From NCBI GenBank assembly GCA_040285825.1, contig JAUPSS010000007.1:582501-646500 (forward strand): a stretch of DNA of 64,000 nucleotides, given 5' to 3'. Every line of letters begins with the position of its first letter. The first letter of the stretch is position 1. A model generated the notes under the pieces. The model did not search any database and was not told the origin of the DNA. It saw only the letters and a list, made by a program, of their open reading frames with translations. This document shows, in pieces, positions 33,655 to 55,584 of this stretch. The stretch comes from Eukaryota sp. TZLM1-RC. Lineage: Eukaryota; Protista; Metamonada: BaSk clade. The position numbers and the translations under genes were made by a program.

Positions 33655-34274
33655 ATGATGGAACTTATTCAGCAATTCGAAAGAACTATCTTTCACTTTG
33701 TAGGTCCTGTTGTTCAAGAACAGTTTTTGTTTATAGACGAAGTGTCGTTTCAACGAAATGACTTCATTCGGACACAAGGTTGGTCACCAAAGGGTTGTCC
33801 AATAGTTGTGGAGAGTCTATCAACTAAGTATAGTCAGATCTCAGCATGTGTAGCGATAGATGTGAACGGTTATGTTCATTCGCACATACAGGAGGGTCAC
33901 TTTGACCGACATCAGTTCATTGGCTTCTTGCGTTCACTTCTTCGTTTAGGCTTTTTGAGCACAAGAGGTGGCCCTCGTAGCTGTATTGTCTTGGATGGTT
34001 GTCGGATCCACATCTATCAACTGATATCTGAAGCATTACTTACTGCCCAGAGCAAAATCCCATCGAAACCTTTTTTGGCTCCTTCAAAAAAACTGTTCGA
34101 AGGTTGACGCAGTACTACAGCGATCTTGATCAAATTCAACTCCTCAACACAATATTGCATCACCATATGAGGTACAATTGTTACAGGATTTTCTCCAATT
34201 CCGGTTGGAAACAGTTTCAAGTTTATCGCTCTCCCTACCTCCTGAAAGAGAAACTAAAGGTGTTTGTAGAATAA
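33655..34274 (+). pseudogene. Second IS630/Tc1 transposase (5'-truncated, small internal deletion causing a frameshift)
   Basis: FIDEVSF, GWSPKG, AIDVNG, EGHFDR, IVLDGCRIH; after the shift YCPEQNPIETFFG...SGWKQFQVYRSPYL. Collinear with the 3-887 transposase. Confidence 0.88.
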
Positions 34275-34363: not shown

Positions 34364-37073
34364 TTACTGGTGACTGTTTTCAGCATTATCAGCTCTTTTG
34401 AGTTGCTGGGCTACAACACTAGACAGTCTAGCAACGGAGGACACTCGCTTTCTAGCACTTCGAATCAAGCTTGGCATAATCGAGATGATGTTCTCAGTCC
34501 GAACTTGTAAGACATTCATGGCGTGATCTCTTGCTTCTACAATTTCTTGGGCGATGAACTGAAAAATGGCTTCGTTTTCTCTTTCTATATCATCGTCGTT
34601 GTCAACAGAGTGGCTGACTCTGGTGAAAAACTGCGTTAGACCTGTTGGAATGGCAGTTGTAGTGCATGTTGGATCATCTTGAATCTTCTTCTGGTGTGAA
34701 ACAAGGTGATCCTCTTGGCCCTTTGCTGTTTTGTTTGGCTATTCATAATATTATTAAAATGACACAACAAGATTTCCCTGATTTGCGTATTGTTGCCTAT
34801 ATGGATGACATTTCTATTATTGGTTCTTTTGAAAGCATTTCTAGGGTTTCTGAAGACATTGCGGCGAAATACAAAGAAATTGGTTTAGCTTTGAACCCAT
34901 CTAAATGTCTCTTGATTGGTAGAGAAAAACAATCTTTGATGATTGGTGGAGCTCAGATTCCTTTTATCAATTATGACCAACAAGCTTTTAAGTTTCTTGG
35001 ATGTTGGCTTGGCAATTTGGATGAAATTTATTCCCAGTTAAACAATTTATTGGAGAAGTTTGACAAGGATCTTAGTTTTATTGCTGAATGTGACATTGAG
35101 AAACACATCAAATTTTTTATTTTAAAAATTTGTTATTCTGGAAAATTCACTCATATTTTAAGGTCAACTCCCCCATCGGTATCTCTCAATTTTTGCAGAT
35201 CTTTTAACAAACTTCGAGTCAAATTTTTTTCTTCTTTATTAGAAGTAAATGAATCTTTAATTCGAAGTCATGTATTTTGTTCAGCAGATTTGGGTGGAAT
35301 TGGATTCACCAAATCTTCTATTCTGTGTAAAGCAGCATTTTTGGGAGGTGGTAAAAATTTTGTTTTTGAATTTTTCCAAAGGTTCCCTTTTGATGTTCAT
35401 CTGATCAATGGTGAATCAAATTTTTACTTGAATCAACTGCAATTTGAATTAGAAAATTTGCCTAGTGATATCTGGATTCAGTGTTTTCCTCAAAATGTTC
35501 AAGAAATTCCCACCCGATCACTTCCAAATTTACGTTTTTGCTTGAAAAAGCTTCAGCACCATCTGGTTAAATTATATGAAGGCTTGGATTATGAAGTAAG
35601 ACTTGGCTTGGCCAAAACTAAAAATCCCGCTTTCGGTAATTTTTTAAAGGATATTCGTGATAGTTCAGCTGCTGCTTTAGTAACTCAAGTTCCCTCTGTT
35701 TATGGACTTTTGTTAAAAAACAATGAATGGCTTCTAAACATGCGTTTTCGTTGTTTTCTGTGGCCAAACAATTTGCCCAATCATTTAACTTGTAAATGTG
35801 GTAAACCTCTTTTGTTTACTCATCTTTTGAACTGCAAACATTTCATTACGTTTAGAAGCAAAGTGCATAATAACGTCAGGGACCAAATTTATGTAATGTG
35901 CAAATCATATCGAGTAGATTCCTTTTTAGAACCGCTGTTATCAAAATTAATTCTTGATGATCCCAATATTGATAGTACGCGTTACAACAGAGCTTCTATG
36001 GGTCTGACTAGAGGTGATCTAGTTGTTCCTGGTTTAAATGGTAGTTTTACTATTTTTGGACGCCATGTCTATTGACCCTTGTAATTCCTCTAACGAACAT
36101 CTCATTAACTCGGATGTAAATAATCCTCTTCTTGCAGGCGAAAAATATAAAATTGCTAAATATGCGAAACCCATTTCCTCGGTTAATGAAAATTCTCATG
36201 CCCAATATAATTTATGTCCATTTGTTTTTTCTTTGCTTGGATCTCTAGGTAAGGCTGCTATGGCTTTCCTCGAGGATTTTGTTGTAGTTGTAAAGGAAAG
36301 AACTGGAAGAATTTTCAATCGTGTTTACTGGCAAAACAGGATTGTATTTTCTATTTTTAAGGGAATGGTAAAACTAATTTCTGATTCACTATCTTCTTTG
36401 GGGAAATTTTCTGAATCTTTAGCAATTAATTGTTTTGATGTAGGGGAGGCAGGTTTCGAGGATGTGGAGTTTTAATTGTGAATTTCATATTTGTTTGTTG
36501 AATAAAAATTAGTGTTGGATCATCTTTATAATTTTTGGCCCAGGTCTCCCAAGCAGACTGTGGACCGTCAATATCTGGGTTCTGTTCCTGCAAAAACTCC
36601 ACTGTAGTTGACCTTGCTTCTTCAGCTTCTGTTTCCTTAATAAACAAGCCGTATTACTTAGCAGACACATTATCGGCAGCTATTTTGATCGAAAATGGGT
36701 ATTCCTTTCGATCGTTTGGCGCAGCAGATAACCAATTTTTAACCCATTTTCTGATTGTGGAAGCCTCGACTTTGGTATAGTTCCAGCCGTTTCCATAAGA
36801 AAAGAAGAACTGAAACGAGCTTCTTGGATGAGTTTTTACTTCCTGAGCTCGGCAAATTGCGTGAAAGTGTTGCAGGAAAAACTCTTTGAGAGCAGAGGGG
36901 CTCCAAGAGTAATCGTGTGTGTAGAATAAGTCAAGTTCGCGAGGTTCGAGTCTGTTAGATTTCTGGCCTGAAAGACAACAGACAACGCCAACAGTAAGTT
37001 TATTGGCGTCAGGGAACAGTTCTAACGAAAGGTCATTAAACAAAGCACGGTTTACGTTTTGATGTTCACTCAT
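34364..37073 (-). pseudogene. Accessory ORF2 of the second IS630/Tc1 element, split by a CRE insertion (reconstructed ~290 aa with one in-frame stop)
   Basis: 36654-37073 and 36527-36653 are in one frame. Removing the insertion and one TSD copy joins AWETWAKNYKDDPT to CTTTAIPTGL...RKRVSSVARLSSVVAQQLKRADNAENSHQ* (stop 34364-34366), homologous to 999-1352. Confidence 0.75.
34681..36512 (+). mobile_element. CRE-like family C, 5'-truncated at the RT QGDPLG motif
   Basis: GVKQGDPLG, YMDD, CKC..HLLNC, RGDL, PFVFSLLGSL. Perfect 14-bp TSD TGTTGGATCATCTT at 34667-34680 and 36513-36526. Confidence 0.93.
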
Positions 37074-37161: not shown

Positions 37162-38294
37162 TCATCCCATAAAACTTCTCTTGTTGCAGATTTGAAAAAC
37201 TTGGATGTTTCGGTTGATGTGCCACAGGCATAAGATGTTTAAGCTTTGAGGAAAGAGCATTTTAATGGAGTTCATTAGCGCCAGTTCACGAACTGTAGTA
37301 ATGGCAGCAGGGATTACTCCAAATATTTCAACGTACGTTGATAAAGCAAAAAAGTAATAGTCAGTTCGTTCTCTTTTTAAAAAGCAAAACGCAAAATAAA
37401 AGTTTTTGTAAGTTCCAGTAATTCCAATAATAGAGAGCAGCCTCATCTTAAAAGCATTTGTCTTATAAGTAGCGTCCATGATCAAGACAGTTGGGTAGCG
37501 TTTAGTGAGTTCGATGGATTTTCGATGACAAAAAAAGAGGGCTACTGAAGTGTTATTTTCCAGATCAACTAAATCCTGATCATCTTGATGAACCTCAATA
37601 TCTGGAGATGCAGAGCGAATTGTAGAATAAGATGCGTTACGAAAGACGAAGTCATCACTGAAGTTGTTGATTAAATATTCCAGCGGAGAGTTATCTCCGA
37701 TCAGATCACGTTTTTTCCGATTCTTTAAGTTTGAAATGTTTCTTTTAGAAATAGAAATCTCAGGATGAGAACTTTTAAAGTCACGTTGAGCTATTCGTGG
37801 AACTGTTGTAATATTAATAGATTCGACAGCTGTTCTTTCTATTTCTGGTGAGCCCCACCTGTGTTGTGGCAGAAAGGTTACATATCGTATACGTTCATGA
37901 TTGTGTTCTAAGCAAAAAGCAGTATAATTAACATCAACAACCCACTGTTCATTCAATCTGATAACTCTCATCTTCCATAAACACTGGGTCTTCAAAGTGG
38001 TGCAAACTCTGCGACGAGAACCTTCTGGTAACGGTTGATACTTTCCAGGGCGAGAACAAACTACATATCCATGATCATATTGTTCCTTAAATCCTAATTT
38101 GTTGACAGCAAATGATTGTTCTTTGGCCCAGTTTTGAATGGCAAGAAAAAGTTCAGAAGAAGTGGAAAAAGAACCATCTTCAGATGGTAGGTCTGTTGTG
38201 AAAGAGGACCACATCAACGAAAGAGTGAATGAGGGTAGCTGTTTGGAAGGATGCACACGGATAACACAAATTTGCACACGGATAACATCATCCC
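37162..38294 (-). mobile_element. MULE (Mutator-like) transposon, 3'-truncated; transposase likely starts at ATG 38214
   Basis: FAR1/WRKY-GCM-type DNA-binding domain (VCSR..KTQCLWKM..HNH), MDATYKTN, CLWHINRNI. The putative left end GGGATG.. carries a duplicated TGTTATCCGTGTGCA motif (38252-38287). Confidence 0.88.
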
Positions 38295-39199
38295 AAGAGT
38301 TATGTTGAAATCTTTTGTTAAATTAGTTTTAACATCGTTCATCTGTCCAGTTCTATTCGAATCTATATCATTACAGTTCAGTAGTTCAATTTTCTCCAAC
38401 AATTGGAATTACATTCTCTGGTCACCTTTTTTCATTATTTGATATATCGGCAGTAACGTGAATAAATTCGTTATCAGTCGTTTATGCAGGTTCAGTTACA
38501 ATTGATTATGGACAATATGTTTCCAATTCCCTTTTGAAATGGAAATGGGAACGCAAAATGTGGAAATTCATTACACATTGCCAAGACTAATCAGCACTCA
38601 TTCTGGTGGATTCATAAGGAACTGTTCAGGCCCAGTACATCAAAATTGAATTAATACAATGTCTGAATATCAAAAACTGATTTTCAGTGGTGCTGATTCT
38701 AATCAAAATATACTGGGAATCAATTGTTTTTGAATTTTTTGAATTAAAAAAAACGATTCAAATTCAGTGGAACCAATTGGAGGTATTGTGTTTATTGGTA
38801 GGAATTCGTTTGAATTTTGTTATTTCCCCTTTGATTTAACTCTCAAAAGTTTTGCTACACTCATCATCCAAAATGTCTTTTGACAAGAATTCGAAAGGAT
38901 TTCACCACTTAAGTTATAGATACCTGCACCAACACGCTTCTATACATACTTCCTACTTTTTGACCAGCTACTGAAAGTGAAAGAACATTTATTAAGCATA
39001 GACTGTGGTTGATTTTTATGTTGAATACAATTCCCCTAAACATTCTCAATTTCAGTTTTCCCCCAAAACTCCCCCAAACAATATGCCGTTGACTTTTCGC
39101 ATACTTTCAGAAGTTAAATCGGCTCAATAGCTTCTGTCGATGCCGTAGGTTGGAAAAGTGGGTTAAGATAAAGCTGATTTATTTTCTATTCATATTATA

Positions 39200-39355: not shown

Positions 39356-40470
39356 GACTCTTCCCCGTGGGGTCCATATCGACGTAGAAGAAACAGAGTA
39401 CTAAACTCTTCGAAAGTTACTACCCTTCTGTTAATCATTGATGTCGATCCCCAGCTATTTTTACATCAAATGAAAAAGATAGCGTTAAAACTCTTTGGTA
39501 AAACTATGTCTGAAACAACACTTTACTGTATAACGTTAGTGGCCATATCAAATTGGGCAACTGCATCAGCATGTAAAACAGTAGGTATTGGAGCCTGAAG
39601 ATAACAGCGATCTGATAAAAGTCGCAATTTCAGCGTCCCTTTTGATGCGTAAAGGCTTAGCGAAACTTTCTACTATTTCCTCATATTCTTTTGTTTTTTT
39701 GGATAAATTGCAAAATCTGTTCTTCTTTTTCTGGACGTCGCTACGTTCTAGATTACAATTTCTTAACAACTTGACTTTGAGAACAGAAGATGGAACACTG
39801 ATAAATTGTTGATTTGATCAGATTCAAATGGAATTTTGAATATCTGCCAGCCACGTGTTGAGAGATGTCATTCAGGATGTATGGATTGAAGTGCTTCAAT
39901 GGATAAGCTTTTAAATTCAACCTCACGATCATTTTGAAGTTCCAATTTATACTCGTTTTTCGAAAGGTCTGCTCCAATACGAAAATATGGAGCGACACCC
40001 TTCTTTATCCATTTTTGGAAGGTTGAATTACTGATAGAACGAAAGTTCTTTGAAGCAGCCCCAGGCTTACCCATCAATACTAATGGTTTTTCATTCATTC
40101 CATAAATTTTAATATTTCTTTCTTTTGCTTGGGCGATAAAGTGAGGAGTCAGAAGTAGCACCAAGTCGTCTGAAACAAGGTGTGAATATGACTCAGCTTG
40201 TTGAATATACACATCGTGTTTCCCTTCATAAAAGAATTTATGAGTTCCCTTATACGGTGCATATAGTAAATACAATTTGAGAGCAACTCAACCATCATGA
40301 ACAAAGGAAAAGTAAAGAGGTTGATGGCTTTGAGTACTATCAACTTCATTAAGGTGAGGGTTGACATACGGTGCTGTATGAAAAGTACTATTGACAGAAG
40401 AAAAATCAAGTTGTTGAGCACAAGACTGTCTCCAAGGGAAGTCAAATCTTTATAAGTTTTTATCAGTGCG
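39356..40470 (-). pseudogene. Decayed gene ending in a possible 2OG-Fe(II) dioxygenase-like domain
   Basis: Stitched frames give LSTRGWQIFKIPF ... PTVLHAD ... FNAIFF ... GST ... PHGE; several stops and frameshifts. Confidence 0.3.
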
Positions 40471-40474
40471 TGGC

Positions 40475-41424
40475 AATACGATATCATTGTTGCCGCTTCC
40501 ACCAAGGAAACATTCCTAGAAAAACTCGAATTAATTCTTTCCTGTGCTAGGAAACACCGTGTAAGAATCGGCCTGCATAAATGCTCTTTCCAGACCGAGA
40601 AACAACCGATGAAGGTCCTCGGAACTATTTTCGAAAATGGTAGACGCCGCATCGACCCATCCAAAATAGAGACCATTCGTAAGTTAGCTCTGCTCACGTG
40701 TGTTCCTGAGGGGAGCTCCTTCATAGGATCTAGCAACTTCCTCCGCGACTGGCTCCCTTCGATTTCTAAAGAACTCGCCCCACTAACCGCCCTTTTGAAG
40801 AATAAGCCAAAGCGTATTAAACTCGGCACTGAAGAGTTGCGTTGCTTCAACATTTTCAAAAATATGGTGATAAACGACCTTGCTCTCCCTGACTCCGACG
40901 CCAACATCCTTGTCTCCACTGACGCTTCTGACAAAGCGATCGCCGGCATCATTTGGAGGGAATTAAGTCCCTCGCCACCCGAAACATGTCTGTCCAAAAG
41001 AAAAGTCATGCCCATCTGTTTTTACTCTCGAATATTGACTAACTCACAGCGTAACTGGTCGACATTACAAAAGGAACTATTCGCAATAGTCATGACACTG
41101 AACCAACCGAATCTCGATTCTTTCCTGCTGACCAAGCACCTAACCTTGTTTTGCGATCACAAAAACCTCTCGTACCTGTTCAGCTGCCCTGACTCTAACC
41201 GCTTAGTGTTACACTGGATCTCTGTGCTACAATCCTTTTTCTTTGACTGTGTACATGTAGAATGAAATCAAGAACTACTGGACCGACTACTTATCTAGAG
41301 TCAAATACACAATTTGCGCCTCAAAGAAAAAGAAAAAAACGAAAAGAAGACCAGAAGTGTCTTTGACAACCCTGCTCCCGCTCCTGCTCCCACCCACGTA
41401 GTATCCGCTATAGTGGCTTCCTCT
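40475..41424 (+). mobile_element. Older Ty3/Gypsy element: RT C-terminus and RNase H fragment
   Basis: DIIVAA..KC, FIGSSNFLRDW, STDASDKAIAG, QRNWSTLQKELFAI, FCDHKNL; paralogous to pol at 48819+. Confidence 0.88.
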
Positions 41425-44400
41425 ATTTATTAAATTATCAAATGATACTTTTGCGTGAACATTTGCCTTTTTCGCCTTTTTATGAACTTCGTATGATTTA
41501 TCGTTAATAGAAGCTGGTGTAATATTAAATAATCGTTTAATGATTTCACCATCGTATACCTTTCCAAATCTTGTGTTTTAAAAAATACAATTCTTTTTGT
41601 TTTGCAACATTTTAACGAGGAAATAATTATTTCAACAGTAAAACAATTCTTCAATTAATTTTTCACGATAGCCAATATAAGTCAGTGCAATATCGGTTTT
41701 ATCTGGATTAATTAACAAGATGTTGTCCAAATTAACTGCCTTTGGATATGTTGCTGTTACATCACGGTGAATTCTAATTCCTGGTGTATCAGAAAAGAAT
41801 TCTCACTGGTTCACTGGTTCAATTGCATTTAATAATTTTATTTCATTACAACGAGGAATTGTTGTTTTTTTTGTTTTAATATAATCATCAAATGCACCCT
41901 TTAATTGTGGTAATAAAACAAACCCCTTTAAATTGAAAATAATCTTTTCATTTACATATTCAAAGCATAGAATATCAAGTAGGCGTGGGTCAACATCCTT
42001 TGTTTGGAATTTCTTAATTCTCTTACTTACAAGTGAATAACACTCACCCAATTCTGAAACATCAATATCATTACAGTTTCTCAACATTAAATCCAAATTC
42101 ATAAAGTAATACTTGTTTTCTATTTCAGTAAAATCAACATCAATGAATAATTATTGTTCGGGATATGTTGGGAATTTCTTTTCAACAATCTTTGGAAGAT
42201 TTGCAATATTATCATATAATATTTTACTGGCAATAAATGACTTTAAACTCAAATATTGATTTCTACACAATTCACCAGTAAATAATGGATGTGATAACAC
42301 AAATTCCATTTCCTCAACATAAAGATTAAATATTTCTTGATTTTTTGACCAAGATGTAAATTCTGTAATTATTTTTGGAGATAACTGGAAAATTGGATCA
42401 CGTATATCTTGCATTGTACTCATTGAAAAATTTTCAAGTGAGTTACCCAATCCATATAATTGTGTGATTGGATCTGTTCTTCTTGACACACTATTATTGA
42501 AATCTGCGGATTTTGAAAATAATACCCTGTAATTGATTTCTCTAGGTGTTGTATCAACAACCTTTGCAACATATTCTTTAGGAGTTTCAGTTTCTGGCAC
42601 GTGATAATTTGTTGGTTGGTCCATATAATTATTAAAATGAATATTCACGATTGCTTGACCAGTTGTCACATTGAGCAAATATTGACAGATATAATCTTCA
42701 TCAGAGATGTCCAACTCTTTACAATATTCATATGTTGCCAATGTTTCAATTATAATCTCTTTTGTTAGCTTCTTACCATCAGATTGTAATTTGAAAATCT
42801 CAGAACACGGATTAATTTTAAACATTTTTCCCAATTCATTTGCAAGATTTTTTTATAAATGAGATGTGAATGGAAAAATGCGGCTGCTGTTGAAATATTA
42901 TGTGATTCAGTTAAACACACAACCACATATCCAACCATCATCTTCTTTTCCTTTGTTGCAATTTGGTGCAATTTTTCCAATTGATACCCATAAGTAGATG
43001 CTAAAATACCCTTTGATTCATAGTCCAAATTGATTTTGTGTAACTTAACATATTCTTGATAAAAATATGGTAACAACACCAGTTCTTCCAATCGTACTTT
43101 CAAATCATTATTGTGATCTAAAACCATTATATCAATTAAGAAATCTGGTATGGTTGAAATTTTAAGATCACCATAATTATAATCTTTTATCATATCAAAA
43201 AAAATCATTTAAATCAACATTTAATTTATTCAAAAACATTCATAGATTTTGGAAATATGTTGACACAGATACATTTTCAATATAATTATAATCCAAAGTA
43301 CCAATAGGTTTGTTGTTTCGTTTCTTTAGAAAATTCCATAATAAAAGAATAAATTCTTGTAGTATATGCAATCATTTTAACCATTTGTAAATTTTCACAG
43401 TCTGATAAATCAAAACAAGTAATTTGTGCACACCTTTAAGTGCACACCTTTGGATATTTTCGGCATCATCAACTAACAGGTTGTTCATTTCTTCAATACT
43501 TTTGACTTTGTTTATGTAATTTCCACATAAATTTTTTTTTAATAATTTGAATTTTATTCTAAACCTATAAATCAACATCTAAAAAATCCATCTCACCCAA
43601 AACAAAAACACTAGATGCAACTCTCTCATAGTGAGATCCAAGAGAAAGCAAAGCATCGGAAACCATCTTCAACATCCCCTTAAAAATAGAAAACACAATT
43701 CTATTTTGCCAAAACAATCTGTTGAAATTTCTGCCAGTTCTTCTCTTTACAATCATTTCAAAATCATCCAAAAAACGTAAAGCAGTTGGTGCAAGTGAAC
43801 CAAAAAGGGAAAATACAAATGGATGCAAATTGTATTTTGCATGCTGTAGACTGGCCAATTTGGATAAAGGTTCATTGTATTTTTTGAATTTAAAATTTTC
43901 AGCATTTGAAAGGGGATTATGAATTTCAGAATTAACAAGCCTTTCATTTGAGGCATTACAAGAATCAACAGACATTACATCCAATAAAATGAAGCTTCCA
44001 TCTAATCCAGGTAATATGACATCACCTCTATTATTCTTATGAAAATCATTTTCAGCATTCAATTCAGGATTCAATTCTATGAGATTTACACATACAATAT
44101 AACTGGTCTCTTACAGCATCATGAACCTTGCTTCTAAAAGTAATAAAATGTTTACAATTTAACAAATGAGTAGTTGTAATTTCTCGAGAACATTTACAAA
44201 TTAAATTATGAGGTAAATTATCAGGCCAGATAAAGGACCGAAATCTCTTATTCAGAGTCCAAGCAGAATCGGATAAGAGAGTACCATAAACTTGTGGAAT
44301 TGTTGTTACTAAGGCAGAAGAAGTACTGTCACACATATCTTGTAAAAGATTTGCAAAAGCGGGATTCTTTTTCTTGGCCAAGCCAAGTCTAACATCAAAA

Positions 44401-45678
44401 GCCAAGCTTTCAAAAATCTTTGACAATTTTTGTTGAAGCTTTTTACAGCAAAACTGTAAATTAAATAGAGATCGGTTTGGAATTTCTTGAATTGATTGAG
44501 GAAAACATTTGGTCCAAATTTGTGGCGGTAATTTTTCAAGTTCACAAGATAACTCATACAAATAGGGACTACAATTGGGGACTAACAGATGAGAATCATC
44601 AGGAAATCTACGAGAAAATTCATAAATAAAATTTTTGCCACCACCCAAGAATGCTGATTGACACAAAATTGAAGATTTAGTAAAACCAATACCACCCAAA
44701 TTTGCTGAAGAAAATAAATGGCTTTTCAACATTCCTGGTTCTACATCCAATAAATCAGCAAAAAATTCTGTTCTCAATGAATTAAAAGAACGACAAAAAA
44801 ATCTAATGCTATGGAAGGAGCATAAGATCTCAAAATGTGGGTTATTCTCCCAGTGTAGCAAATTTTAAGCATGAAAAATTTAATATGCTTTTCTATATCT
44901 AAAGAAGAAATTGAATCAAGTTCAATTTTCATTTTTTTCCAAAATAACTTGCAATTCATTCTGAATTTGAGGCACATTTCCTAACCAACAACCAAGGAAC
45001 TTAAAAGCATCACTACTATAATTAGTAAAAGGGACAATAGAATCGTTTATCACGAGGTCTTGAGCAGAAGAGCCAATCAGAAGGCATTTGCTGGCATTAA
45101 GATGAAGCCCAATATTTTCATATGAATCGGCAATTTCTTGAGCAACCAATTCTAGTAAATCAAATGAACCAATCAAGGATATATCATCCATATAAGCAAC
45201 TATTTTTATAGAAGGGTATTTTTGCTTAATGATATTTAAAGTTTTGTGAATAGCTAAACAAAACAATAATGGGCCTAAAGGATCTCCCTGCTTCACTCCA
45301 GAAGATGATTTAAGACCAAATGAATTAAAAATTAAATCTGATTCTTTCCCATAAAAATGGTAGAAAAAACTCGATAGCTCAGGAAAATCAGATTTAATAA
45401 CTTCAAAAATTGCTTCTCGCTTTACAGAATTAAAAGCATTGTTAAAGTCGAGATTAAAAATAAAATTATTTTCCTCTGCATTAAAAAAGGTATCAGAGGC
45501 AACATAAATTTAACATTTAATAACATATTCCACATAAATGATCTCGTAAAGTAGAAATGAAATTATATTCTAGAAAATTTCCCCAGATACCATATATCAT
45601 GTCGTGTGGTTTGGAGTTACCATCAACTTGTATTTCTTGAGATAAAAAATCGTGAATGTTTGCTAAACAGTTATTCAT
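41425..45678 (-). pseudogene. Large uncharacterised ORF (~750 aa reconstructed), frameshifted and split by the CRE insertion
   Basis: Fragments 45502-45678, 43372-43531, 42765-43208, 42151-42834, 41803-42102 and 41430-41800 follow one another via single stops or shifts. Confidence 0.55.
43532..45501 (-). mobile_element. CRE-like family B, 5'-truncated copy of the defective subfamily
   Basis: Near-identical to 11715-13690, with a poly(T) tail at 43532-43540. TSD ACATAAA(TTT) at 43525-43534 and 45502-45511. Confidence 0.92.
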
Positions 45679-45712
45679 TTTTATGTAATTTAATTCAGTC
45701 TTTTACCTAAGA

Positions 45713-46219
45713 ATGAGATTACCAACTATTTTACAAAAAGGTACTTTTGAAAAACCATCTGGTACAACACAACACGAATGGATGGCTGGGGGTGTTGATG
45801 TTATTGCAGTTGATATAATTACAAAAATTTTAAAAGAAAAACAAAAATTACCACCAACAGATATTGACAAATATATATATATTGTTTATTGGTAGAACTG
45901 GTACTCGAAGATCATCTGCGTTCATCCTTAAATTATATGAGGAATTCCCTGATGCTCGAATGGCAATCCTCGAACCACGTAGGTTTTGATTACAATCATT
46001 TGAACAATATGGTAAAAGTTTGTATGAAACTTATTCGAAAATATACGATAATATAATTGAAGGCAAAAATGAAATTGAAACATTTGAATTCAATGATCAT
46101 GATTATGAATTATATGATTCTATAAAGACAAGAAAGTTACCTCTTATTATTCCAACAAAAAAATAACAGAAGAATTATTAGAACAAGTACGTGCATCTTT
46201 TATAAAGTTAATAGTTTAA
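45713..46219 (+). pseudogene. DEAH/NPH-II-type RNA helicase remnant (N-terminus, motifs I and Ia, then a large internal deletion)
   Basis: MRLPTILQKG...LPPTDIDKYIY, then after a shift LFIGRTGTRRSSAF (degenerate Walker A) and MAILEPRR (motif Ia). Confidence 0.6.
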
Positions 46220-46518
46220 ATTCGGGTAATCTATTTGATTTTCGTTGGGTCGATTTTACAAAAGTTTGTGAAATTGTAACGATATCACCAATTTTATATA
46301 TTTCAACATTTTATTTTGTTTTTGATCATATAATTATGTGAAAAATTACATCTATATCCATATTCACAATAACCATCCTTAAAAAAATGGTAAACATTTT
46401 GTTAATTTATAATTTGATGAAACTTTTCGAGGTTTAATTTCAGTAATTGAATGTGCATATGTGCATTTTTCATTATAAGGACAATTTGGGTAATTTCTAC
46501 AAAATTCAGTTTCATCAT
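46200..46518 (-). pseudogene. Minimal tristetraprolin/ZFP36-like tandem CCCH zinc-finger protein (~105 aa; three 1-nt homopolymer indels)
   Basis: KTEFCRNYPNCPYNEKCTYAH-(18 aa)-CLPFFKDGYCEYGYRCNFSH, with a YKLTKC lead-in and a C-terminal RLPEFKLLTL*. Confidence 0.8.
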
Positions 46519-46540
46519 TTATATACTGTATTCTCCCGAT

Positions 46541-46595
46541 TAGAGCACCTCCCTAAGGGGTGCTCTATAACAGAGCGCTCTTGAATAGAGCACCC
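46541..46595. repeat. GC-rich inverted/direct repeat cluster (AGAGCACC motif)
   Basis: TAGAGCACC (46541) / GGTGCTCTA (46559-46567) hairpin, AGAGCGCTCT palindrome (46572-46581) and TAGAGCACCC (46586-46595). Confidence 0.7.
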
Positions 46596-46972
46596 TCATA
46601 CTTGACTAAAATCAACTGCAGTCAATAGTATTTGTTAAACTGTATTTCTAACAACTTAGCAAATTACAATAAATACTGGAAACTGGATGAAAAATTTGAT
46701 ATTCTACGCTCTTTTCACTCATGTATACTCAGTATTCGGCGCGCCTAAATCTATCCACTCTGATAATGGCCCTGAATTCTCCAACCAGACCTTTGCCTTG
46801 ATATGCTTCTATCTGAACATTGAACACACCCTTTCCATCTGCCATTTCCATCAGTCCAATGGACTAGTAGAACGGCAACACCGAACCTTTCTCCCAGCTT
46901 TCCAGAAACTGCTACTTGTCTTCTCTGATGATGACAACTGGTGTCATTATGTTCCAATTTGTTAAATGCTGA

Positions 46973-47064
46973 TGTAATCGTAATAGTTAGTTATTGCCAC
47001 GTCATCACTCGTTTAGTACTCGTGTTAGTTATAATAATTCATTCGTTTATCTCTCTAAGCTACA
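46973..47064 (+). repeat. 5' LTR (92 bp)
   Basis: Identical to 51404-51495. Confidence 0.96.
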
Positions 47065-47091
47065 GTAACGTTACTTTAGACCGCGAGATTT

Positions 47092-48732
47092 ATGTCCGAT
47101 ACCGAATCGCCACCCCCGTCTGAATCCGAACAACGCGTAGCCGATACCTCGTCAAGTTCCGAAAGCTCCGAGAGTACCGCCCAATTAAGCGAATCAGAGT
47201 CCGAGTCTGAACCCGAAGTAATATCCGAAGAAGAACGAAGCAACCCCAATGAAGACCACCAAGACAACAATGATGTCGAAGACAAGAACCCAACCATACA
47301 ACCCGATCTATCCGAAACGCTAAAAAAATTGTTTATCACCGGCTCCATGGTAAGACCCGTCACGCTGCGTTCCCTCAGCAGAACAAATGTTAAATACTTC
47401 TTCGAGAAGTACGAACTCTATAAAATAAACTCTAACACTGCCCTACCTTTAAAGAACTTCATTCCTAAACGTTTACTCAAGGTAATCACTGTCGAAACTG
47501 GATCCACCAAAGACAAAAAAATCCATCGATACTTGAACTCATTGACTATTATTACCGACCCCTACGAAGCTAAAAAAGCGATGAAAGCATGCCGTATGAA
47601 CATCAAAATCAAGAACAAAGAACAACAGCTAGCTGATTATTACGTCAGATTTCTCGAAATAGTTGAACAATGCCGCTTCAACACAAAAAACAAGACCGTC
47701 ATCCGCTACTTCCTAAGAAACCTCCATCCGAAACATGTCGCAAACGAAATTGAAGAAAACGTTGACCTAAGCTATTTGAAATCCCTCCACACAGTCTACA
47801 AAGAAGCAAAGAAACTAATCAAAAGAACGTATAATCAACAGAAACGTAATCATTATCCTCGCCTAAACACTTCCGATAATCCTTCAAAAAACGATAACGG
47901 TTCCGAAACTTCTGAGATCCCACAGAACGGAAGACCCGACGAAAATGAAACATCCGCTCATCATACTCAAAGACGCTTTAAATACTCTAAGGACTCCGGC
48001 CGCTGTTTACACTGTGGTTCTTATGACCATTACGTAAAAAATTGCCCCAATAATCCACCTCCCCCTCGATACAAGAAAAAAGAAGTTTTTCACATATCCT
48101 CAGACAACGGTGTGCTTCGCAGCCCTGTTACAGTCAACGGTACCTCCATAGAAGCAATCATCGATACCGGTTCAAGCATCTCCCTGATTTCCGAAAACAT
48201 ACGTGCCACATTGAACCTTAACATTCAACCCTTGACTAATGAAATTGAACTGAAAACAATCTCTGGATCCTTTTATCCAGACAAAATGGTTAAAGATGCC
48301 CGTATCGAAATCTCTCTCATTAATTCAAAACCATCCGTCGTAAACCACAACCTCGTGATCATCCCTCTTCCCGACAAGCTCATTCTCGGTTGTGACATTC
48401 TTAGGAAACTTGGCTGTCTCACTAATTCTTCCTTTCATTTTGATTTCAACTTCACTCCTGATATAGACCCAGACCCTATTGCTGACCTATATCCCAATCC
48501 ACTCGAGCTTTTTCACGTCGAATCCGAAAAAGGCAGCAATCTAGACGACATCACATCCAAGGCCTCACTGACGCCGAACATAAAACTCTTGCCAACCTAC
48601 TACAAGAATACTCAGACATATTTACCACAGCTCTACACCCCGACGGAGTCAAATGTGAACCCTTACGTTTACCTCTTCACCCTGAAAAAATTGTTACCTC
48701 CGCTGCAAGACCTCTATCGCCGAGAAAACTGA
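47092..48732 (+). CDS. gag: Gag-protease
   Basis: CLHCGSYDHYVKNC zinc knuckle; AIIDTGS and ILGCDIL protease motifs. Confidence 0.9.
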   Translation: MSDTESPPPSESEQRVADTSSSSESSESTAQLSESESESEPEVISEEERSNPNEDHQDNNDVEDKNPTIQPDLSETLKKLFITGSMVRPVTLRSLSRTNVKYFFEKYELYKINSNTALPLKNFIPKRLLKVITVETGSTKDKKIHRYLNSLTIITDPYEAKKAMKACRMNIKIKNKEQQLADYYVRFLEIVEQCRFNTKNKTVIRYFLRNLHPKHVANEIEENVDLSYLKSLHTVYKEAKKLIKRTYNQQKRNHYPRLNTSDNPSKNDNGSETSEIPQNGRPDENETSAHHTQRRFKYSKDSGRCLHCGSYDHYVKNCPNNPPPPRYKKKEVFHISSDNGVLRSPVTVNGTSIEAIIDTGSSISLISENIRATLNLNIQPLTNEIELKTISGSFYPDKMVKDARIEISLINSKPSVVNHNLVIIPLPDKLILGCDILRKLGCLTNSSFHFDFNFTPDIDPDPIADLYPNPLELFHVESEKGSNLDDITSKASLTPNIKLLPTYYKNTQTYLPQLYTPTESNVNPYVYLFTLKKLLPPLQDLYRREN

Positions 48733-51380
48733 AAATTGCCAACCAAATATTTGACAGCTTAATAGAGAAAGGTCTAGCCAGACCATCTTGTTCCCCATTC
48801 GCCTCTCCTATTGTTCTAGTGGAACGAACTAACAAAGAACCTAGATTAACTGGCGATTATGGGCGACTCAACGAGATCCTTATTCCTATCATCCCCGATA
48901 TTCCACGTCTAAGCGAAGTTCATAAACAACTCGCCAACGCAAAATACATCGCATGCTTCGACCTGCCACGCGCTTTTTATCAAATATTGATGCACGAAGA
49001 AGATATTCCTAAGACTGCTATCGTAATACCGGGTCGCAAGATTGAGTTTCTCCGAGCTCCCTTCGGTTTCTCCACAGTACCAGCCCACTTCCAAAAACAA
49101 TTGAACAACATCCTTGGTAGTGATCACACTTGGATCTACATAGATGACCTCATCGATACTGCCGCTACTTTCGAAGACTTTATCAATCATATAGCATGGA
49201 TTCTAAAACAATGCCGAGCTCACAACATCCGCTTATCAGCCAAGAAAAGCATCATCACAACTAAGGCTTACCCAATACGAATTGTCGGAACAATCTTCCA
49301 CAACGGCCAACGACTCCCAGACCCCACCAAAACAGAAGCCATTACACAATTGAATTTCCCATCAAATATAACCGAATTACGTTCCTTTCTCGGCTCAATC
49401 AACTTTTTACGAGATTTAATCCCCAACTTAGCTTCACTTCGAGCCCCTCTTGACGAATTACTGAGAAAGAACTCCAAGTACTCTCCTTGCAAAACCCATC
49501 GTGAGGCATTCGATCAACTTATCAATCACGTAAAAAAGATCATCCCTCTTACTATACCTGATGACCATCACCCCTTCATCATGACTACCGACGCATCCTC
49601 TACAGGTATTGGTGCTGCTTTATTCGTAGAACTTCCTCCTTATGCACCTAACAAACCCCTGAAGGATCGTTCTCTGAAACCTGTTTCTTTCTTTTCCCGC
49701 AAATTAACAAAAACTCAGCAAAACTGGCCAACCATCAAGCAAGAACTCTTTGCCATTATCGAATCACTACGCTACGAACCTCATCACGAATTTCTGTTTG
49801 GACGTTGCTTCGAACTTCATACGGATCACCGGAATTTACTTTTTCTATTGAACAGTTCAACTTCAAATCCCCTTATAGAACGCTGGAAACCAATCTTATT
49901 TCACTATGACTTCACCATGCACCATGTTGACGGACCTTCAAACTTATGGGCCGACCTTTTGTCTCGCTCTTACACTCATCAATTGAAATCCTCGACGGCT
50001 ACGGACAACGACTTGTGTCTTTATGCTGAACTTGATGAACTCTTACCACACCTGGACACACAAACTTTACTCAACGACACTGACCTCCGTACGGAATTTC
50101 TTAGTACAATCCATAAGGAAAACGCACATCTCAGCAAAACCCGTATGTTGCAAAAACTCAAATCCCTGAAGCTCGACACATCTCACTTCAAAGAAAATGT
50201 TGATTCCATAATCGATAACTGTGGTATCTGCCAAAAATTCTCGAGTTCGTCTTTTTCTTCTCCGCCTCTAACAGGCAAACTGTTCTCACACTTACCCTTC
50301 CAATCTCTTCATCTCGATTCCATTGGCCCTCTTCAGGATGACTCTGATGGGAACAAATACATCTTAGTAATGACCGACGCATTCACACGATTTTCTATAT
50401 TGAAAGCCATTCCCAATATTACGGCAGAGACTATAGCAAACGCTTTGATTTCATCTGTTTTTTGCATGTTTGGTCTTCCTGAATCGATAAGAACAGATAA
50501 CGGCCCTGAATTTGACAATCGCCTTTTCGCTGCTCTACTCAAAAGTCTTTATATAAAACATACTTTCAGTTACCCACACCATCACGAATCTAATGGACTC
50601 ACAGAGAGATGAAACAGAGATATCCGATCTACTTTAAACAGATTCGCAGCCGAATACAACAATAGGGCAAATTGGTCAAAATTAATTCCCTTCACTCAAC
50701 TAATTATCAACTCTTTTCTGTGCTCATCCACAGGATTTGCTCCCTTTACACTCTTGTTTGGGGCTAATACATCACCACGACGAAATATCATCGATCACAT
50801 CTTATCTTCACCCATTTCCAATTTCAAACTAGATTCACGCACAAAGGCAAAAACGTTCCTGCTTGATCTTGAAAATACACTCACTAGCTTATGGCTATCT
50901 GCCGAGAATCAGCAAGACAGTTTCACCAAACCTCATCTTAAACATGAACCACTATTTAAGATTGGAGACCTGGTTCTTAGGAAATCTGACAACAAAAACA
51001 AATTTATTAAGCACACTGGACCCTTCGTCGTACTTGAGATACCTGGATCTAACGGGTACAAGATTGGAAGTATTGTTAACGACAGCTCTTACAACGTTTC
51101 TCAATATCAACTTCTACCTTTTCTACCAAACGAACTCAACGATAATGCTAGAACAGTTGCTGCCTTAGACTCTTCCGAATTCATCGTAGAAAATATCACT
51201 GATCATCGTATTGAGGATAATCAGTTTACTTTCTTAGTGAAATTTCTCAACGGGCCTACTTTGTGGCAACCATTAGAGAACCTTCGTGATGGTTTTAGAA
51301 TCAACAGCGTCTTACTCGACTATGCCAACAAAAATGGAATCAAACTCCCTACTCGCCACAGAAAGAAGGTAGATAGGTGA
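48486..51380 (+). pseudogene. pol: Pol (RT, RNase H, integrase, chromodomain); -1 frame relative to gag, with one nonsense codon at 50610-50612
   Basis: FASPIVLV, APFGFS, YIDD, TDASSTGIGA, TDHRNL, H..H..CGIC, LDSIGPL, TDNGPEF, SNGLTER*, HTGPF, EFIVENITDHR..FLVKF..WQPLENL. Confidence 0.92.
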
Positions 51381-51403
51381 CCTCACTCTCAAATGAAGGG
51401 TAG

Positions 51404-51495
51404 TGTAATCGTAATAGTTAGTTATTGCCACGTCATCACTCGTTTAGTACTCGTGTTAGTTATAATAATTCATTCGTTTATCTCTCTAAGCTACA
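51404..51495 (+). repeat. 3' LTR (92 bp)
   Basis: Identical to 46973-47064. Confidence 0.96.
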
Positions 51496-52308: not shown

Positions 52309-53151
52309 TGAGCCAACACAACCAAGGTATCAATCAATATAGATCTTTGGACTTCTGCCTCTCAATCTCCATTCGTCGCTGTAACAGCTCATTTTGTCAA
52401 CGCGGAATTCAAATTGCAATAAGTATTATTGGATCTCATTATGTGACCAAATCCGCATACCAAAAAAGTTATCAGCGACTGTCTGTTCAATTTGTTTGAA
52501 GAATTTGAGTTAACCAAAAACTTCCTTGGAATCACTACTGACAACGGAGCCAATGTCGTGGCCAGTGTACAGTTGTTATCTGACCGTCTTCGAGATTTGG
52601 GGATAGTTATAGCTCCTAGACGATGTTCTACCCACATTTTGAATTTAGCTGTCAAGTGGGGGCAAGGTACATGTCAGTCAGGTAACGATCCTCTCACCTA
52701 CTGGAAAAGCAACACATTACGCTTTTTACTTTTACCTCGCCTTGCGAAGAATTACCTCAATGTACAAGCAACCTCTGTCTGTTGTGAACAAGTCTTTTCT
52801 CCCGCTGGACGCACTGTCACTGAGTTCAGAGCATCTTTGTCTGACAACAGTGTCCAAGCTCTTATAAGTCTACAAGATTGGAGACGCTTCTTTCAAGTAG
52901 ATTTCTAACAGGTAAATATTTCAATAAATACTTGGTTCATTATATATGTCTATATCTAAAGGTACAAAGTCCACAGCAGTGGGAAGTTTATCAGGTTTAA
53001 ACTCAAATCTGTTGGCTCCAAACCAAACTAAACCCAAACCTGAAAAACAAAAAACCAGGCTGAACCCAAGCCTGTTTATCGAAAACCAAACCTAGCCTGC
53101 ACCAGGTTTGAGGTGTAAAACCTAATTGAAACTTAAACTTGCACAGTCCTA
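52309..53151 (+). mobile_element. Internally deleted hAT relic with its right end
   Basis: DLWTS..FVAVTAHFVN, ITTDNGANV, RCSTHILNL joined directly to the hATC dimerisation domain (ATSVCCEQVFS); AAACC-type subterminal repeats and a terminus ...GCACAGTCCTA. Confidence 0.82.
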
Positions 53152-53472
53152 GTTTTTTCACCTAAATTAGCTGACATTGATGCCATTGTCCCAACGGTCT
53201 TTAAACCGTTTGAATCCTCCGACTTTCCAACATTTGTTGCGAAGAAGACTATAACGTGCTGTTGAAACCCCAAATAATTGCATTACTGAGACCAGGGATG
53301 ACTAAAGTGGTCCAAAAAATGAAATTAAAGTACTTTATTTACTTTAAGCTTTACTTTAAACTTTAAGCTTTAAGCTCTAAAATTGGCTAAAGTGGTATAA
53401 AGTAGTGAACGCTTCTTTCTTTACTCTCCACCCCTTTCTCACTTCATTTTTCTTATATATTTTCTTTTGTTA

Positions 53473-55584
53473 ATGACTTCACTCCCTTGTGAGGCTTGGA
53501 CGAATGTCTGTCAAGTCAACGAAGTTGTTTCAAAGACTTGTGCGCGCTTTCAATGTCTATTATGCGGTGAGGTCTATTCTGTCAACCGATGGGCAATGGA
53601 AGGGCATTATGTATCTGACCTACTACCTAAAAGACAGGTACCGTTATGCAACCAAATAGGGTGTCCTGAGAGTAACAATGGTAAGAAGGTTGCAGACTTA
53701 CGAGTGTATCTAGCTACACATTCTAGACAACGCAAAAGACGAGCTTCCAGTATCAATAGTCCAGCTCCTAGACAAGCACTTCCGTCCTTTTCAAGTCCTT
53801 CTCCACTTACTCCTTTTACACCACAGACTCCATCAACTCCTTCTACACCACAGAATCCATCAACTCCATCAACGATTCACAATCCCTTCTTTTCAGGCAG
53901 TCAACAACCAACTGTCCAAAGAACACTTCATCAACTCACTTTGAAGAAGACTCAAGAGCGGTTGAACACGAAGATGCTGGAAGACATGGCTGCAACGTAC
54001 TGTTTTAGTGAAGGTCTCCCTCTAACGAAAGTTAGTAGTGGAACATTGCTACAAGACTTGATAGATAAATCAGTTGAGCATTTTAAGTTATATGGACAAG
54101 TTTTTCAATTACCTTCTTACACCAAATTACAGTCATCTGTGGGACCACGAGTGGTCATTAGTGTAAAAGACGGAATTAAAAAACAACTCACCCAACACAA
54201 ATTGACAGGATTTTGCCTGGCAATAGATGGTTCTGAAGTAAATGGCAATTCTTTAATCAATTTTTGTTTGATTGCTCCAGGGAAATCAATTTTCTGGAAA
54301 GCTGTCGATGCGGAGACCAATCGAAAGAATGAAACATATCTTACCAATTTATTTGAAACCACAATTCAAGAAATCGGCCCTGATTTGGTCAATTGTGTGA
54401 TAACTGATGCAGCTCCAAATTATCTTAATGCTGCCAATAATTTATTCAATATGGTAAAAGTCAAAGGACTCAGGTGTGCAATTCACACTTTGAATTCCTT
54501 TATGAAAGATATTTTAGAAGTGAATTCACAATTCAAGATAGACTCTATATGCCAGTTGATCGTACCTGCCATTAAAGTCGTTACGTTCGTTCTAAAACCA
54601 TTTATTAAGAAGCTCATGCGAAAAGTTTCTACAACAAAGAAGTTGAAACGAATAGCCACTACAAGGTTCTATACACATTTTCTTGTGTTGGAAAGAGTAG
54701 TTGAGCTTTATCCATTTATAGCCCATACCTTGACTCATGAAGAGTATGTCCGATGGCTATCCTTCCCCGAACAACGGGGTTTACGTCAGGAATCCTGTGA
54801 CGTAAAGAGAATTTTAGCCAATGAAAACTATTGGACAAAAGTGGAAAAATTGGTGGACTTCATGAAACCACTTGTCAATATCATGCAAAGAATTAATAGT
54901 TTGACACCAATTATGGGCAAACTGTATCGCTATCTACAAATGGAAAAAGAAAGAATGGATCTCACTCAACTATCATTTATATCAGAAGAAGAACACAGTC
55001 TACTTCTTCAGAGATTTGAAATCAGAATTTTGCAAATCTTCAACGACTATCATCGGGCGGCTTTTTGTTTGGATCCTGAATTTAGGGATTTAATTACAGA
55101 ACAACAATTTCAAGAGTGTCGTGATGCTTTGTTTCGAGTGATTGAAGAACAATTTGGACGGGCAAAAAAGGCAGACATCATTCATCAATGGTCTTGTTAT
55201 GTTGCAGGGTCAGATTTATTCGAACACAGTGAACTATTCAACATAGCTTCCAGAATGGCAGCACATGAATGGTGGTATGTTCATGGCGGTAACACTGAGC
55301 TATCTAACCTGGCAGTGAGACTGTTAAGTATGGTGACATCAAACTCAGAAGCTGAAAGAAACTGGTCGGACTTTCGTATTGTATGTACACAAGAAAGAAA
55401 CAAAATGGAAAGTCAGAGGGCAACAGATAGTGTGATGGTGAAGCATTACGTCAGAGGAGGAAGAAGTAGTTCGAAGAAGTATTGGGACTGGCTGAATGGT
55501 GCAGATGTCCCCAATGAACCTGATGAGTTGGAAGTAAGTAGCGGGGTGTCATCCGATGAAGACGTAATTGAGATCCATGAGTAG
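53473..55584 (+). CDS. hAT transposase (DUF659/hATC type)
   Basis: IDGS..LINF, VITDAAPN, RCAIHTLN, TRF, AAFCLDPEF, WW..LAVRLLSMVTSNSEAERNWS; uninterrupted ORF. Confidence 0.93.
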   Translation: MTSLPCEAWTNVCQVNEVVSKTCARFQCLLCGEVYSVNRWAMEGHYVSDLLPKRQVPLCNQIGCPESNNGKKVADLRVYLATHSRQRKRRASSINSPAPRQALPSFSSPSPLTPFTPQTPSTPSTPQNPSTPSTIHNPFFSGSQQPTVQRTLHQLTLKKTQERLNTKMLEDMAATYCFSEGLPLTKVSSGTLLQDLIDKSVEHFKLYGQVFQLPSYTKLQSSVGPRVVISVKDGIKKQLTQHKLTGFCLAIDGSEVNGNSLINFCLIAPGKSIFWKAVDAETNRKNETYLTNLFETTIQEIGPDLVNCVITDAAPNYLNAANNLFNMVKVKGLRCAIHTLNSFMKDILEVNSQFKIDSICQLIVPAIKVVTFVLKPFIKKLMRKVSTTKKLKRIATTRFYTHFLVLERVVELYPFIAHTLTHEEYVRWLSFPEQRGLRQESCDVKRILANENYWTKVEKLVDFMKPLVNIMQRINSLTPIMGKLYRYLQMEKERMDLTQLSFISEEEHSLLLQRFEIRILQIFNDYHRAAFCLDPEFRDLITEQQFQECRDALFRVIEEQFGRAKKADIIHQWSCYVAGSDLFEHSELFNIASRMAAHEWWYVHGGNTELSNLAVRLLSMVTSNSEAERNWSDFRIVCTQERNKMESQRATDSVMVKHYVRGGRSSSKKYWDWLNGADVPNEPDELEVSSGVSSDEDVIEIHE

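What the first reader, a model, noticed from the sequence alone, without database searches (positions are those of the whole stretch)
41425..46530. Giant-virus-like endogenous segment inside a retroelement nest
Seen: composition drops abruptly to very AT-rich at ~41425. Three intronless genes are packed in virus fashion: a divergent pair 34 bp apart (45678/45713) and a convergent pair overlapping by 20 bp (46200-46219). The segment replaces the region between RNase H and integrase of an old Gypsy and was later hit by a CRE with a TSD, so it is integrated rather than a contaminant. Gene content is a DEAH/NPH-II-like helicase, a TTP-like TZF protein and a large orphan. Inference: a relic of a Nucleocytoviricota (possibly asfarvirus-related) genome, pointing to an undescribed virus of this host. 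No hallmark gene (capsid, PolB, A32) is visible here.
Basis: partly seen in the sequence, partly recalled or inferred. Interest (0 to 1): 0.82.

Follow-up and report, generated by a model that had tools for sequence, protein, structure and literature searches.

The report
Eroded asfarvirus-like fragment inside retrotransposon
A 3-kb AT-rich piece of broken, intron-less genes sits inside an old retrotransposon of a microbial eukaryote and is likely a fossil scrap of a giant DNA virus related to African swine fever virus, which would be one more case of a known kind of viral fossil.

Summary
The anatomy holds up. About 3.1 kb of foreign-looking DNA (GC 27-28% against 35.6% for the window; GC3 0.22 against 0.35 for host genes) lies between the RNase H and integrase parts of a decayed Gypsy. 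A CRE later entered it and left an 11-bp target duplication. All three genes are broken.

The plus-strand gene (45713-46219) is the start of an asfarvirus-type (B962L-like) DEAH helicase. It scores 23 bits against a 228-sequence viral profile, above all 2737 shuffles. Its N-terminal cap is not matched by the 60 solved cellular helicases listed. Its Walker A is eroded and the match ends after motif Ia.

The zinc-finger gene is tristetraprolin-like, which does not indicate origin.

The 'orphan' has no database relative. It shows weak, collinear traces of the same helicase family with dead motifs (about 65% likely; some controls failed), as a paralog or as the other half of one inverted gene.

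No hallmark gene, genome or reads were available, so viral origin rests on roughly 95 residues plus layout and composition (about 65%). Endogenous Asfuvirales are already described, so this is a new member of a known kind.

The parts
40456..41319 (+). Old, 5'-truncated Gypsy: RT end and RNase H
   Evidence: Pfam RT_RNaseH E 1.3e-19; 36% identical to young Gypsy pol aa 215-501
41425..43531 (-). Large broken gene ('orphan'), main part. Likely a degenerate DEAH/B962L-type helicase with eroded motifs Ib, II, V and VI. The frame runs into Gypsy sequence at 41425 without a stop.
   Evidence: No homolog; weak collinear profile matches; not significant; several stops and frameshifts
43521..43531 (-). 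CRE target-site duplication, copy at the CRE 3' end
43533..45502 (-). 5'-truncated host CRE non-LTR retrotransposon inserted into the large gene
   Evidence: Pfam RVT_1 E 1.3e-18; 94.7% to 11716-13705 and 98.8% to 28602-29592; the name CRE is recalled, not from a call
45528..45538 (-). CRE target-site duplication, copy at the CRE 5' end
45529..45678 (-). First 50 codons of the large broken gene
   Evidence: ATG at 45678; frame continues across the duplication
45713..46219 (+). Fragment of an asfarvirus-type DEAH (B962L/NPH-II-like) helicase: N-terminal cap, eroded Walker A, motif Ia, then about 75 unrecognisable codons
   Evidence: 23.1 bits, profile positions 1-102, 0 of 2737 shuffles; hhalign 50% probability for the first 60 aa and 11% for the second piece
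46200..46525 (-). Broken tristetraprolin-like tandem CCCH zinc-finger gene (first finger C-x5-C, 18-aa linker, second finger C-x8-C across a frameshift)
   Evidence: Pfam zf-CCCH families below curated cut-offs; PDB tristetraprolin E 2e-6
46541..46630 (.). Hairpin-rich block of unknown origin at the right junction, with three copies of a 9-mer (direct, inverted, direct)
   Evidence: -16.4 kcal/mol, z -3.7, 0 of 200 shuffles; no Gypsy pol match
46680..46972 (+). Old Gypsy integrase core
   Evidence: Pfam rve E 1.1e-6; 37% identical to young Gypsy pol aa 644-740
46973..51495 (+). Young Gypsy with identical 92-bp LTRs and a 4-bp target duplication, inserted in the old integrase

Best explanation
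The segment is a broken, intron-less three-gene insert inside a decayed Gypsy and is likely a dead fragment of an Asfuvirales-like giant DNA virus that was probably pasted in by break repair or recombination.

Shown: the insert lies between Gypsy RNase H and integrase; a host CRE later entered it with a target duplication; a young Gypsy entered the old integrase; all three genes carry stops or frameshifts; the plus gene starts like asfarvirus B962L-type DEAH helicases.

Inferred: viral donor; entry during infection of this host lineage; no transposase or integrase involved, since no end duplication is seen and some Gypsy pol is missing.

Also inferred, with about 65% confidence: the large gene is a second piece of the same helicase family with eroded catalytic motifs, either a head-to-head paralog or the other half of one gene split by an inversion. 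In the donor, B962L-type helicases are virion-packaged candidate factors for early transcription termination, and the zinc-finger protein would bind AU-rich mRNA. Here the segment most likely does nothing.
For: HELICASE START
- 23.1 bits (E 2.7e-9) against an N-terminal profile of 228 asfarvirus-type helicases, aligned from the first Met over profile positions 1-102; 0 of 2737 scored shuffles reach it.
- Without the first 10 residues, which held the motif I used to find seeds: 11.9 bits, 1 of 2741 shuffles. Motif I/Ia part alone: 8.3 bits, 0 of 1851.
- 89 of 120 independently found relatives carry the N-terminal motif, as does the ASFV-like record L044.
- The 60 solved cellular DEAH chains listed (of 70 found) begin matching at profile position 30-63, never at the cap. 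The window's gene matches positions 2-64.
- Bacterial DEAH profile 6.0 bits; other viral DEAH profile -0.3.
- Neighbours of the family include NCLDV capsid, primase, Rpb1, poly(A) polymerase and Erv1.

COMPOSITION AND LAYOUT
- GC3 0.22 against 0.35 for host genes; dinucleotide distance 0.134 against a maximum of 0.105 in 56 other tiles.
- Genes on both strands with 34 bp between starts.
- Giant-virus contigs do encode tandem CCCH proteins, including a C-x5-C first finger.

LARGE GENE AS HELICASE
- Of 858 six-frame tiles of the window, the only two hits to the helicase profile were the plus-gene start and the large gene's Ib/II-like stretch (neither significant alone).
- Core alignment z 4.1, 0 of 400 shuffles and 1 of 400 block shuffles.
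- Joining the two pieces with X raised the score from 17.2 to 35.5 bits, best of 12 junctions.
- MAFFT and hhalign place its C-terminus on the same family motif.
Against: - No capsid, PolB, A32 or VLTF3 found in the segment; the one capsid hint was in a non-coding frame and vanished with a profile.
- No tree was built.
- The motif I/Ia part scores nearly as well against bacterial DEAH (7.1 against 8.3 bits; profile of only 12 sequences). Residues 11-55 alone are not significant (176 of 2759 shuffles). The viral call therefore leans on the first ten or so residues plus correct spacing.
- The plus-gene pieces found nothing directly: Pfam, NCBIfam, protein database (second piece), Atlas (first piece), viral contigs (second piece).
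- CRE copies also have GC3 0.25, so composition is weak evidence.
- Large gene: 9 of 148 unrelated viral proteins also reached z 3.8 or more.
- Large gene: four of six profile ranges were not significant.
- Large gene: hhalign was not significant, and a CRE control scored the same.
- Large gene: 47 of at most 175 unrelated profiles hit it at P<0.05, one of them better than the helicase profile.
- The junction control was run at only one junction, where 1 of 500 shuffles beat the observed 22.6 bits.
- Junctions are not verified by reads.
Confidence: 0.65

Rival explanations
1. Host or cellular genes (a divergent DEAH helicase, a TIS11/tristetraprolin-like gene and an orphan) captured into the Gypsy as retrocopies or by DNA capture, then pseudogenised.
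For: The insert is inside an LTR element, where transduced genes are commonly found (own knowledge). TZF proteins are ordinary eukaryotic genes. Motif Ia reads like cellular HrpB-type helicases, and that part scores 7.1 bits against a bacterial profile. Many host ORFs in the window are long and intron-poor.
Against: The N-terminal cap is not matched by the 60 listed solved cellular DEAH chains. The genes lie on both strands with 34 bp between starts, which an mRNA capture would not give. GC3 is 0.22 against 0.35. The large gene has no relative among 1.84 billion representatives, which is unusual for a conserved host gene.
Confidence: 0.15
2. Viral-derived DNA carried by another mobile element (a rolling-circle or MITE-like element whose end is the hairpin block at 46541-46630, or a smaller DNA virus that had taken these genes), rather than direct capture from a giant virus.
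For: The hairpin block folds better than 200 of 200 shuffles, is not Gypsy pol and sits exactly at one border. The catalytic motifs look more eroded than the few stops would predict, which suggests a history before this insertion (inference).
Against: No second copy of the block in the window or in 278 fetched loci. No terminal repeat or target duplication longer than 8 nt joins the two ends. No transposase or Rep lies in the segment.
Confidence: 0.12
3. Assembly chimera of a free virus contig with host repeats.
For: Both borders lie in repeats; no genome or reads could be checked.
Against: A host CRE 95-99% identical to two other copies sits inside the segment with a clean duplication. All genes are decayed, which a free virus would not be. 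The Gypsy halves are collinear across the insert.
Confidence: 0.05

Closest known systems
Giant endogenous viral elements of Asfuvirales in Euglena gracilis (PMC12455990; passages read)
   Same: Integrated, eroded, invaded by transposable elements, asfarvirus-related, in a microbial eukaryote.
   Different: Those span 86-311 kb and carry capsid, A32, RNA polymerase and VLTF3 markers. This is about 3 kb with no hallmark gene, inside a Gypsy.
1.5-Mb Asfarviridae-like region in Rhizophagus irregularis (PMC10640383; passages read)
   Same: Asfarvirus-related insertion with shifted GC and pseudogenes.
   Different: Recent, 1.5 Mb, transposon-poor and placed by marker trees. Here the relic is tiny, older than the CRE that hit it, and placed by one profile match.
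ASFV B962L / vaccinia I8 (NPH-II) DEAH helicase (PMC10965686; passages read)
   Same: N-terminal cap, position of Walker A and motif Ia; possibly Ib, II, V and C-terminal region in the large gene.
   Different: Walker A lacks GK(S/T); the motif II-like stretch lacks DExH; no motif VI is recognisable; the gene is split or duplicated and broken. It could not be an active helicase.
Tristetraprolin / TIS11 tandem CCCH proteins
   Same: Two CCCH fingers, 18-residue linker, similar lead-in residues.
   Different: First finger three residues shorter (C-x5-C), as in CCCH proteins on giant-virus contigs L243 and L255; very short protein; frameshifted.

Membership tests
Endogenous Nucleocytoviricota element (GEVE or fragment) | Hallmark genes (MCP, PolB, A32, VLTF3, RNAP) | tested here: not met
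   None found in the 3-kb segment; the rest of the genome is not held, so absence from the genome is untested
Endogenous Nucleocytoviricota element (GEVE or fragment) | Genes whose closest family is viral | tested here: met
   One gene of three: 23.1 bits viral profile against 6.0 bacterial and -0.3 other viral DEAH; no eukaryotic profile could be built, one search is the indirect test
Endogenous Nucleocytoviricota element (GEVE or fragment) | Physically joined to host DNA | tested here: inconclusive
   Internal host CRE with target duplication and collinear Gypsy halves; no reads listed
Endogenous Nucleocytoviricota element (GEVE or fragment) | Compact intron-less layout and shifted composition | tested here: met
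   34-bp divergent spacer; GC 27-28%, GC3 0.22, dinucleotide distance above all 56 control tiles; effect is modest
Asfuvirales | Placement in marker-gene phylogeny | not tested
   No marker gene; fragment too short; script machine lost before a tree was tried
B962L/NPH-II-type DEAH helicase | N-terminal cap followed by Walker A and motif Ia | tested here: met
B962L/NPH-II-type DEAH helicase | Intact catalytic motifs I (GK[S/T]), II (DExH), III, VI | tested here: not met
   Walker A eroded, no DExH, no motif VI in either gene
B962L/NPH-II-type DEAH helicase | Large gene homologous over RecA1, RecA2 and C-terminal domains | tested here: inconclusive
   For. Against. Folds uninformative
Tristetraprolin-like TZF | Two C-x8-C-x5-C-x3-H fingers with 18-aa linker | tested here: inconclusive
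   Linker and second finger fit, first finger is C-x5-C; PDB hit E 2e-6; Pfam below cut-offs

The most novel reading that the evidence does not exclude
The fragment comes from a deep, unsampled Asfuvirales lineage that infects this host group and had already turned its virion DEAH helicase into one or two catalytically dead pseudo-helicases, keeping the N-terminal cap while losing motifs I, II and VI. The piece entered the genome by recombination with a Gypsy retrotransposon, which would make an LTR element the vehicle for giant-virus DNA.
Probability: 0.2. Interest if true: 0.65.

Novelty: new member of a known kind. Interest (0 to 1): 0.4.

Why it matters
If viral, it records a past infection of this microbial eukaryote by an asfarvirus-like virus so divergent that its large gene has no relative among 1.84 billion protein representatives. 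It would tell where to look (the rest of this genome, related hosts) for markers that could extend the Asfuvirales host range. It also shows how small such relics can become inside retroelement nests, below what marker-based screens would catch. A dead B962L-type helicase kept by a virus would be new; one literature search for it listed nothing on point in the 10 titles shown. On present evidence it is a non-functional 3-kb scrap.

Tried and rejected
GENOME AND READS
- Whole genome: none held. Sequencing runs: none was listed.
- Earlier findings: four look-ups returned nothing.

LARGE GENE
- No hit in the protein database (lengths 261-832 only), the 1.84-billion representatives, PDB sequences, Pfam, NCBIfam, viral contigs, one virus record (4 of the 5 handles given were not held) or the Atlas for one natural ORF.
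- Two single-sequence folds were unusable (pLDDT 38 and 36), so their fold searches say nothing.
- A capsid-protein resemblance was rejected: wrong frame, gone with a profile.
- An 11.7-bit hit of cluster c37 lies in a frame full of stops and was rejected.

INVERSION VERSUS PARALOG: unresolved
- No inverted repeat longer than 11 nt joins the candidate break regions, and the DNA alignment there is weak.
- BLASTP between the two genes found nothing.
- MAFFT places a degenerate Walker A-like stretch in the large gene too, but hhalign did not.
- The full junction scan with real-protein controls never ran.
- My script read-through of the large gene probably used the wrong frame for about 50 codons upstream of the helicase-like part (14-bp duplication at 43426-43451). 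This weakens only the test of its N-terminal part.

OTHER
- The first shuffle control scored nothing and was redone.
- Zinc-finger gene: no close viral relative.
- No Rfam match in 41000-47000.
- L147 was dropped from alignment A4 because it was out of frame.
- Literature searches for viral tristetraprolin (0 papers; 3 listed, none on point by title) and for endogenous giant viruses in metamonads (3 listed, not read) added nothing.
Full report
SETTING. The window is eukaryotic, 35.6% GC. Compact host genes (ATG9, a CCT chaperonin subunit, two kinases, a ChAPs-family protein, a Na/H antiporter) lie among many transposons. The host lineage was not determined, no genome is held, and no sequencing run was listed.

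ANATOMY. From left to right: a decayed Gypsy RT/RNase H (40456-41319), the insert (41425 to about 46530), a hairpin-rich block, the old integrase core (46680-46972), and a young Gypsy with identical 92-bp LTRs and a 4-bp target duplication (46973-51495). The old halves align to residues 215-501 and 644-740 of the young element's pol, so the insert does sit between RNase H and integrase, with some pol sequence missing. No repeat longer than 8 nt joins the insert's two ends. A 2-kb CRE on the minus strand (43533-45502) is 94.7% and 98.8% identical to two other copies. It carries an 11-bp duplication found twice in the window against 0.14 expected. A host element inside the insert, and decay of all its genes, argue for real integration.

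COMPOSITION. The arms are 28.3% and 26.8% GC, and the lowest of 219 other 2-kb tiles is 30.7%. GC3 is 0.22 against 0.35 for 11 host ORFs, but CRE ORFs have 0.25. The dinucleotide distance to the rest of the window is 0.134, against at most 0.105 in 56 tiles. This is a real but modest shift; the 'abrupt drop' owes much to the 42-44% GC Gypsy next door.

THE PLUS GENE (45713-46219). Direct searches found nothing. A degenerate pattern for its first ten residues found 28 viral loci, two of which encode full DEAH helicases. From one of these came 173 relatives, of which 120 were listed; 89 of the 120 carry the same N-terminal motif. An alignment of 71 fetched 76 viral and 80 metagenome loci. Selected neighbours include NCLDV capsid, primase, Rpb1, poly(A) polymerase, ERCC4 and Erv1. 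One record (L044) has an Erv1 gene matching PDB 3gwl at E 2e-70, which I recall as ASFV B119L next to B962L.

The window's gene, read with X at its frameshift, aligns from the first Met over positions 1-102 of a 228-sequence profile at 23.1 bits. Controls: 0 of 2737 scored shuffles reach it; without the ten seed residues 11.9 bits, 1 of 2741; motif I/Ia part 8.3 bits, 0 of 1851; residues 11-55 alone not significant (176 of 2759); the tail after motif Ia not significant (1505 of 2883). Alternative profiles scored 6.0 (12 bacterial DEAH) and -0.3 (7 other viral DEAH). The motif part alone is not discriminating (7.1 against 8.3 bits). What discriminates is the cap: hhalign matches the first 60 residues to profile positions 2-64 (probability 50%), while the 60 listed solved cellular DEAH chains, of 70 found, begin matching at position 30-63. 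The Walker A has lost GK(S/T). In ASFV, B962L is the NPH-II homolog, found in virions and a candidate early termination factor (PMC10965686, passages).

THE LARGE GENE. It has about 750 codons with several stops and frameshifts and no relative in any search. Folds were unusable. Several results point to a degenerate helicase. In a scan of 858 six-frame tiles with the helicase profile, the only two hits were the plus-gene start and a stretch of this gene matching profile positions 135-178, motifs Ib and II (E 0.46 and 0.52). A global-in-profile alignment of the helicase core gave z 4.1, with 0 of 400 shuffles and 1 of 400 block shuffles as high. Joining the two pieces with X gave up to 35.5 bits against 17.2 and 6.8 separately, best of 12 junctions. 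MAFFT and hhalign put the C-terminal part on the same family motif, at 12-17% overall identity.

Other results are against it. Nine of 148 unrelated viral proteins also reached z 3.8. Four of six ranges were not significant. hhalign never reached significance, and a CRE control scored the same. Of at most 175 unrelated profiles, 47 hit at P<0.05 and one did better. The junction control covered one junction only (1 of 500 shuffles above 22.6 bits). I put homology at about 65%. If true, there are two readings I could not separate. One is a single gene split by an inversion that carried both start codons; the recognisable parts are complementary, 1-102 and 134 onward. The other is two head-to-head paralogs; MAFFT finds a degenerate Walker A-like stretch in the large gene as well (not confirmed). 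Either way motifs I, II and VI are eroded more than the few stops suggest, which hints, as inference only, that the protein was already a dead enzyme in the donor.

THE ZINC-FINGER GENE. The best PDB hit is tristetraprolin (E 2e-6). The linker is 18 residues and the first finger three residues short. Two pattern scans found 27 and 12 CCCH-like stretches in viral contigs. Of five inspected, two giant-virus contigs encode triple-CCCH proteins with the same short first finger, and the other three also encode CCCH-type fingers. The gene is compatible with a viral donor but does not show one.

MECHANISM. Most likely a piece of viral DNA present during infection was ligated or recombined into a Gypsy copy, with loss of some pol sequence and no target duplication. 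It then decayed and was hit by a CRE; a young Gypsy entered the adjacent integrase. The CRE insertion after the insert is shown. The viral donor (about 65%) and the route of entry are inferred. The rivals are captured host genes (15%), a mobile-element vehicle marked by the hairpin block (12%; z -3.7) and a chimera (5%).

COMPARISON AND VERDICT. Eroded Asfuvirales insertions are known in Euglena (PMC12455990, passages) and Rhizophagus (PMC10640383, passages). Both are far larger and placed by marker trees; their supplements were not consulted. This segment works like a small scrap of such an element, but it fails the hallmark-gene test within its 3 kb and was not placed on a tree. It is a new member of a known kind, interest 0.4. 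It would rise if the assembly yields markers or if a dead-helicase lineage is confirmed.

Noticed in passing
window 6570-7964 (+): Broken TnpB/Fanzor-like gene: weak Pfam Cas12f1-like_TNB match (E 0.02) and RuvC-like motifs by eye; frameshifted.
   Followed up: partly
window 46541-46630: Hairpin block with three copies of a 9-mer at the right junction, z -3.7; not Gypsy pol; could be the end of a small mobile element or part of the viral piece.
   Followed up: partly
window 46973-51495 (+): Very young Gypsy with unusually short (92-bp) identical LTRs, a 4-bp target duplication and a weak chromodomain match (E 0.018); pol carries one frameshift and one stop.
   Followed up: partly
window 53293-55908 (+): hAT transposon with a 727-codon open frame (DUF659, hAT dimerisation domain) and imperfect terminal inverted repeats.
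   Followed up: no
window 37162-38322 (-), 33547-34107 (+), 52447-52908 (+): MULE transposase, DDE_3 transposase and a second hAT fragment.
   Followed up: no
window 62401-63998 (-): Na+/H+ antiporter family gene (PF03553, E 5e-31), a family I recall as mainly prokaryotic; possible lateral transfer.
   Followed up: no
window 2387-4663 (-): ChAPs (exomer-type cargo adaptor) family protein with an internal 90-bp repeat; could help place the host lineage.
   Followed up: no
window 11716-13705, 20836-21237, 25204-26398, 28602-29592, 30064-30669, 34663-36509, 60079-61714: At least three subfamilies of CRE-like non-LTR elements of different ages.
   Followed up: no
window 39566-40287 (-): Protein-like open frames just left of the old Gypsy with no Pfam match; unexplained.
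   Followed up: partly
L185, L186, L187, L229: Asfarvirus-type helicases on contigs binned into bacterial genomes, probably misbinned giant-virus contigs.
   Followed up: no
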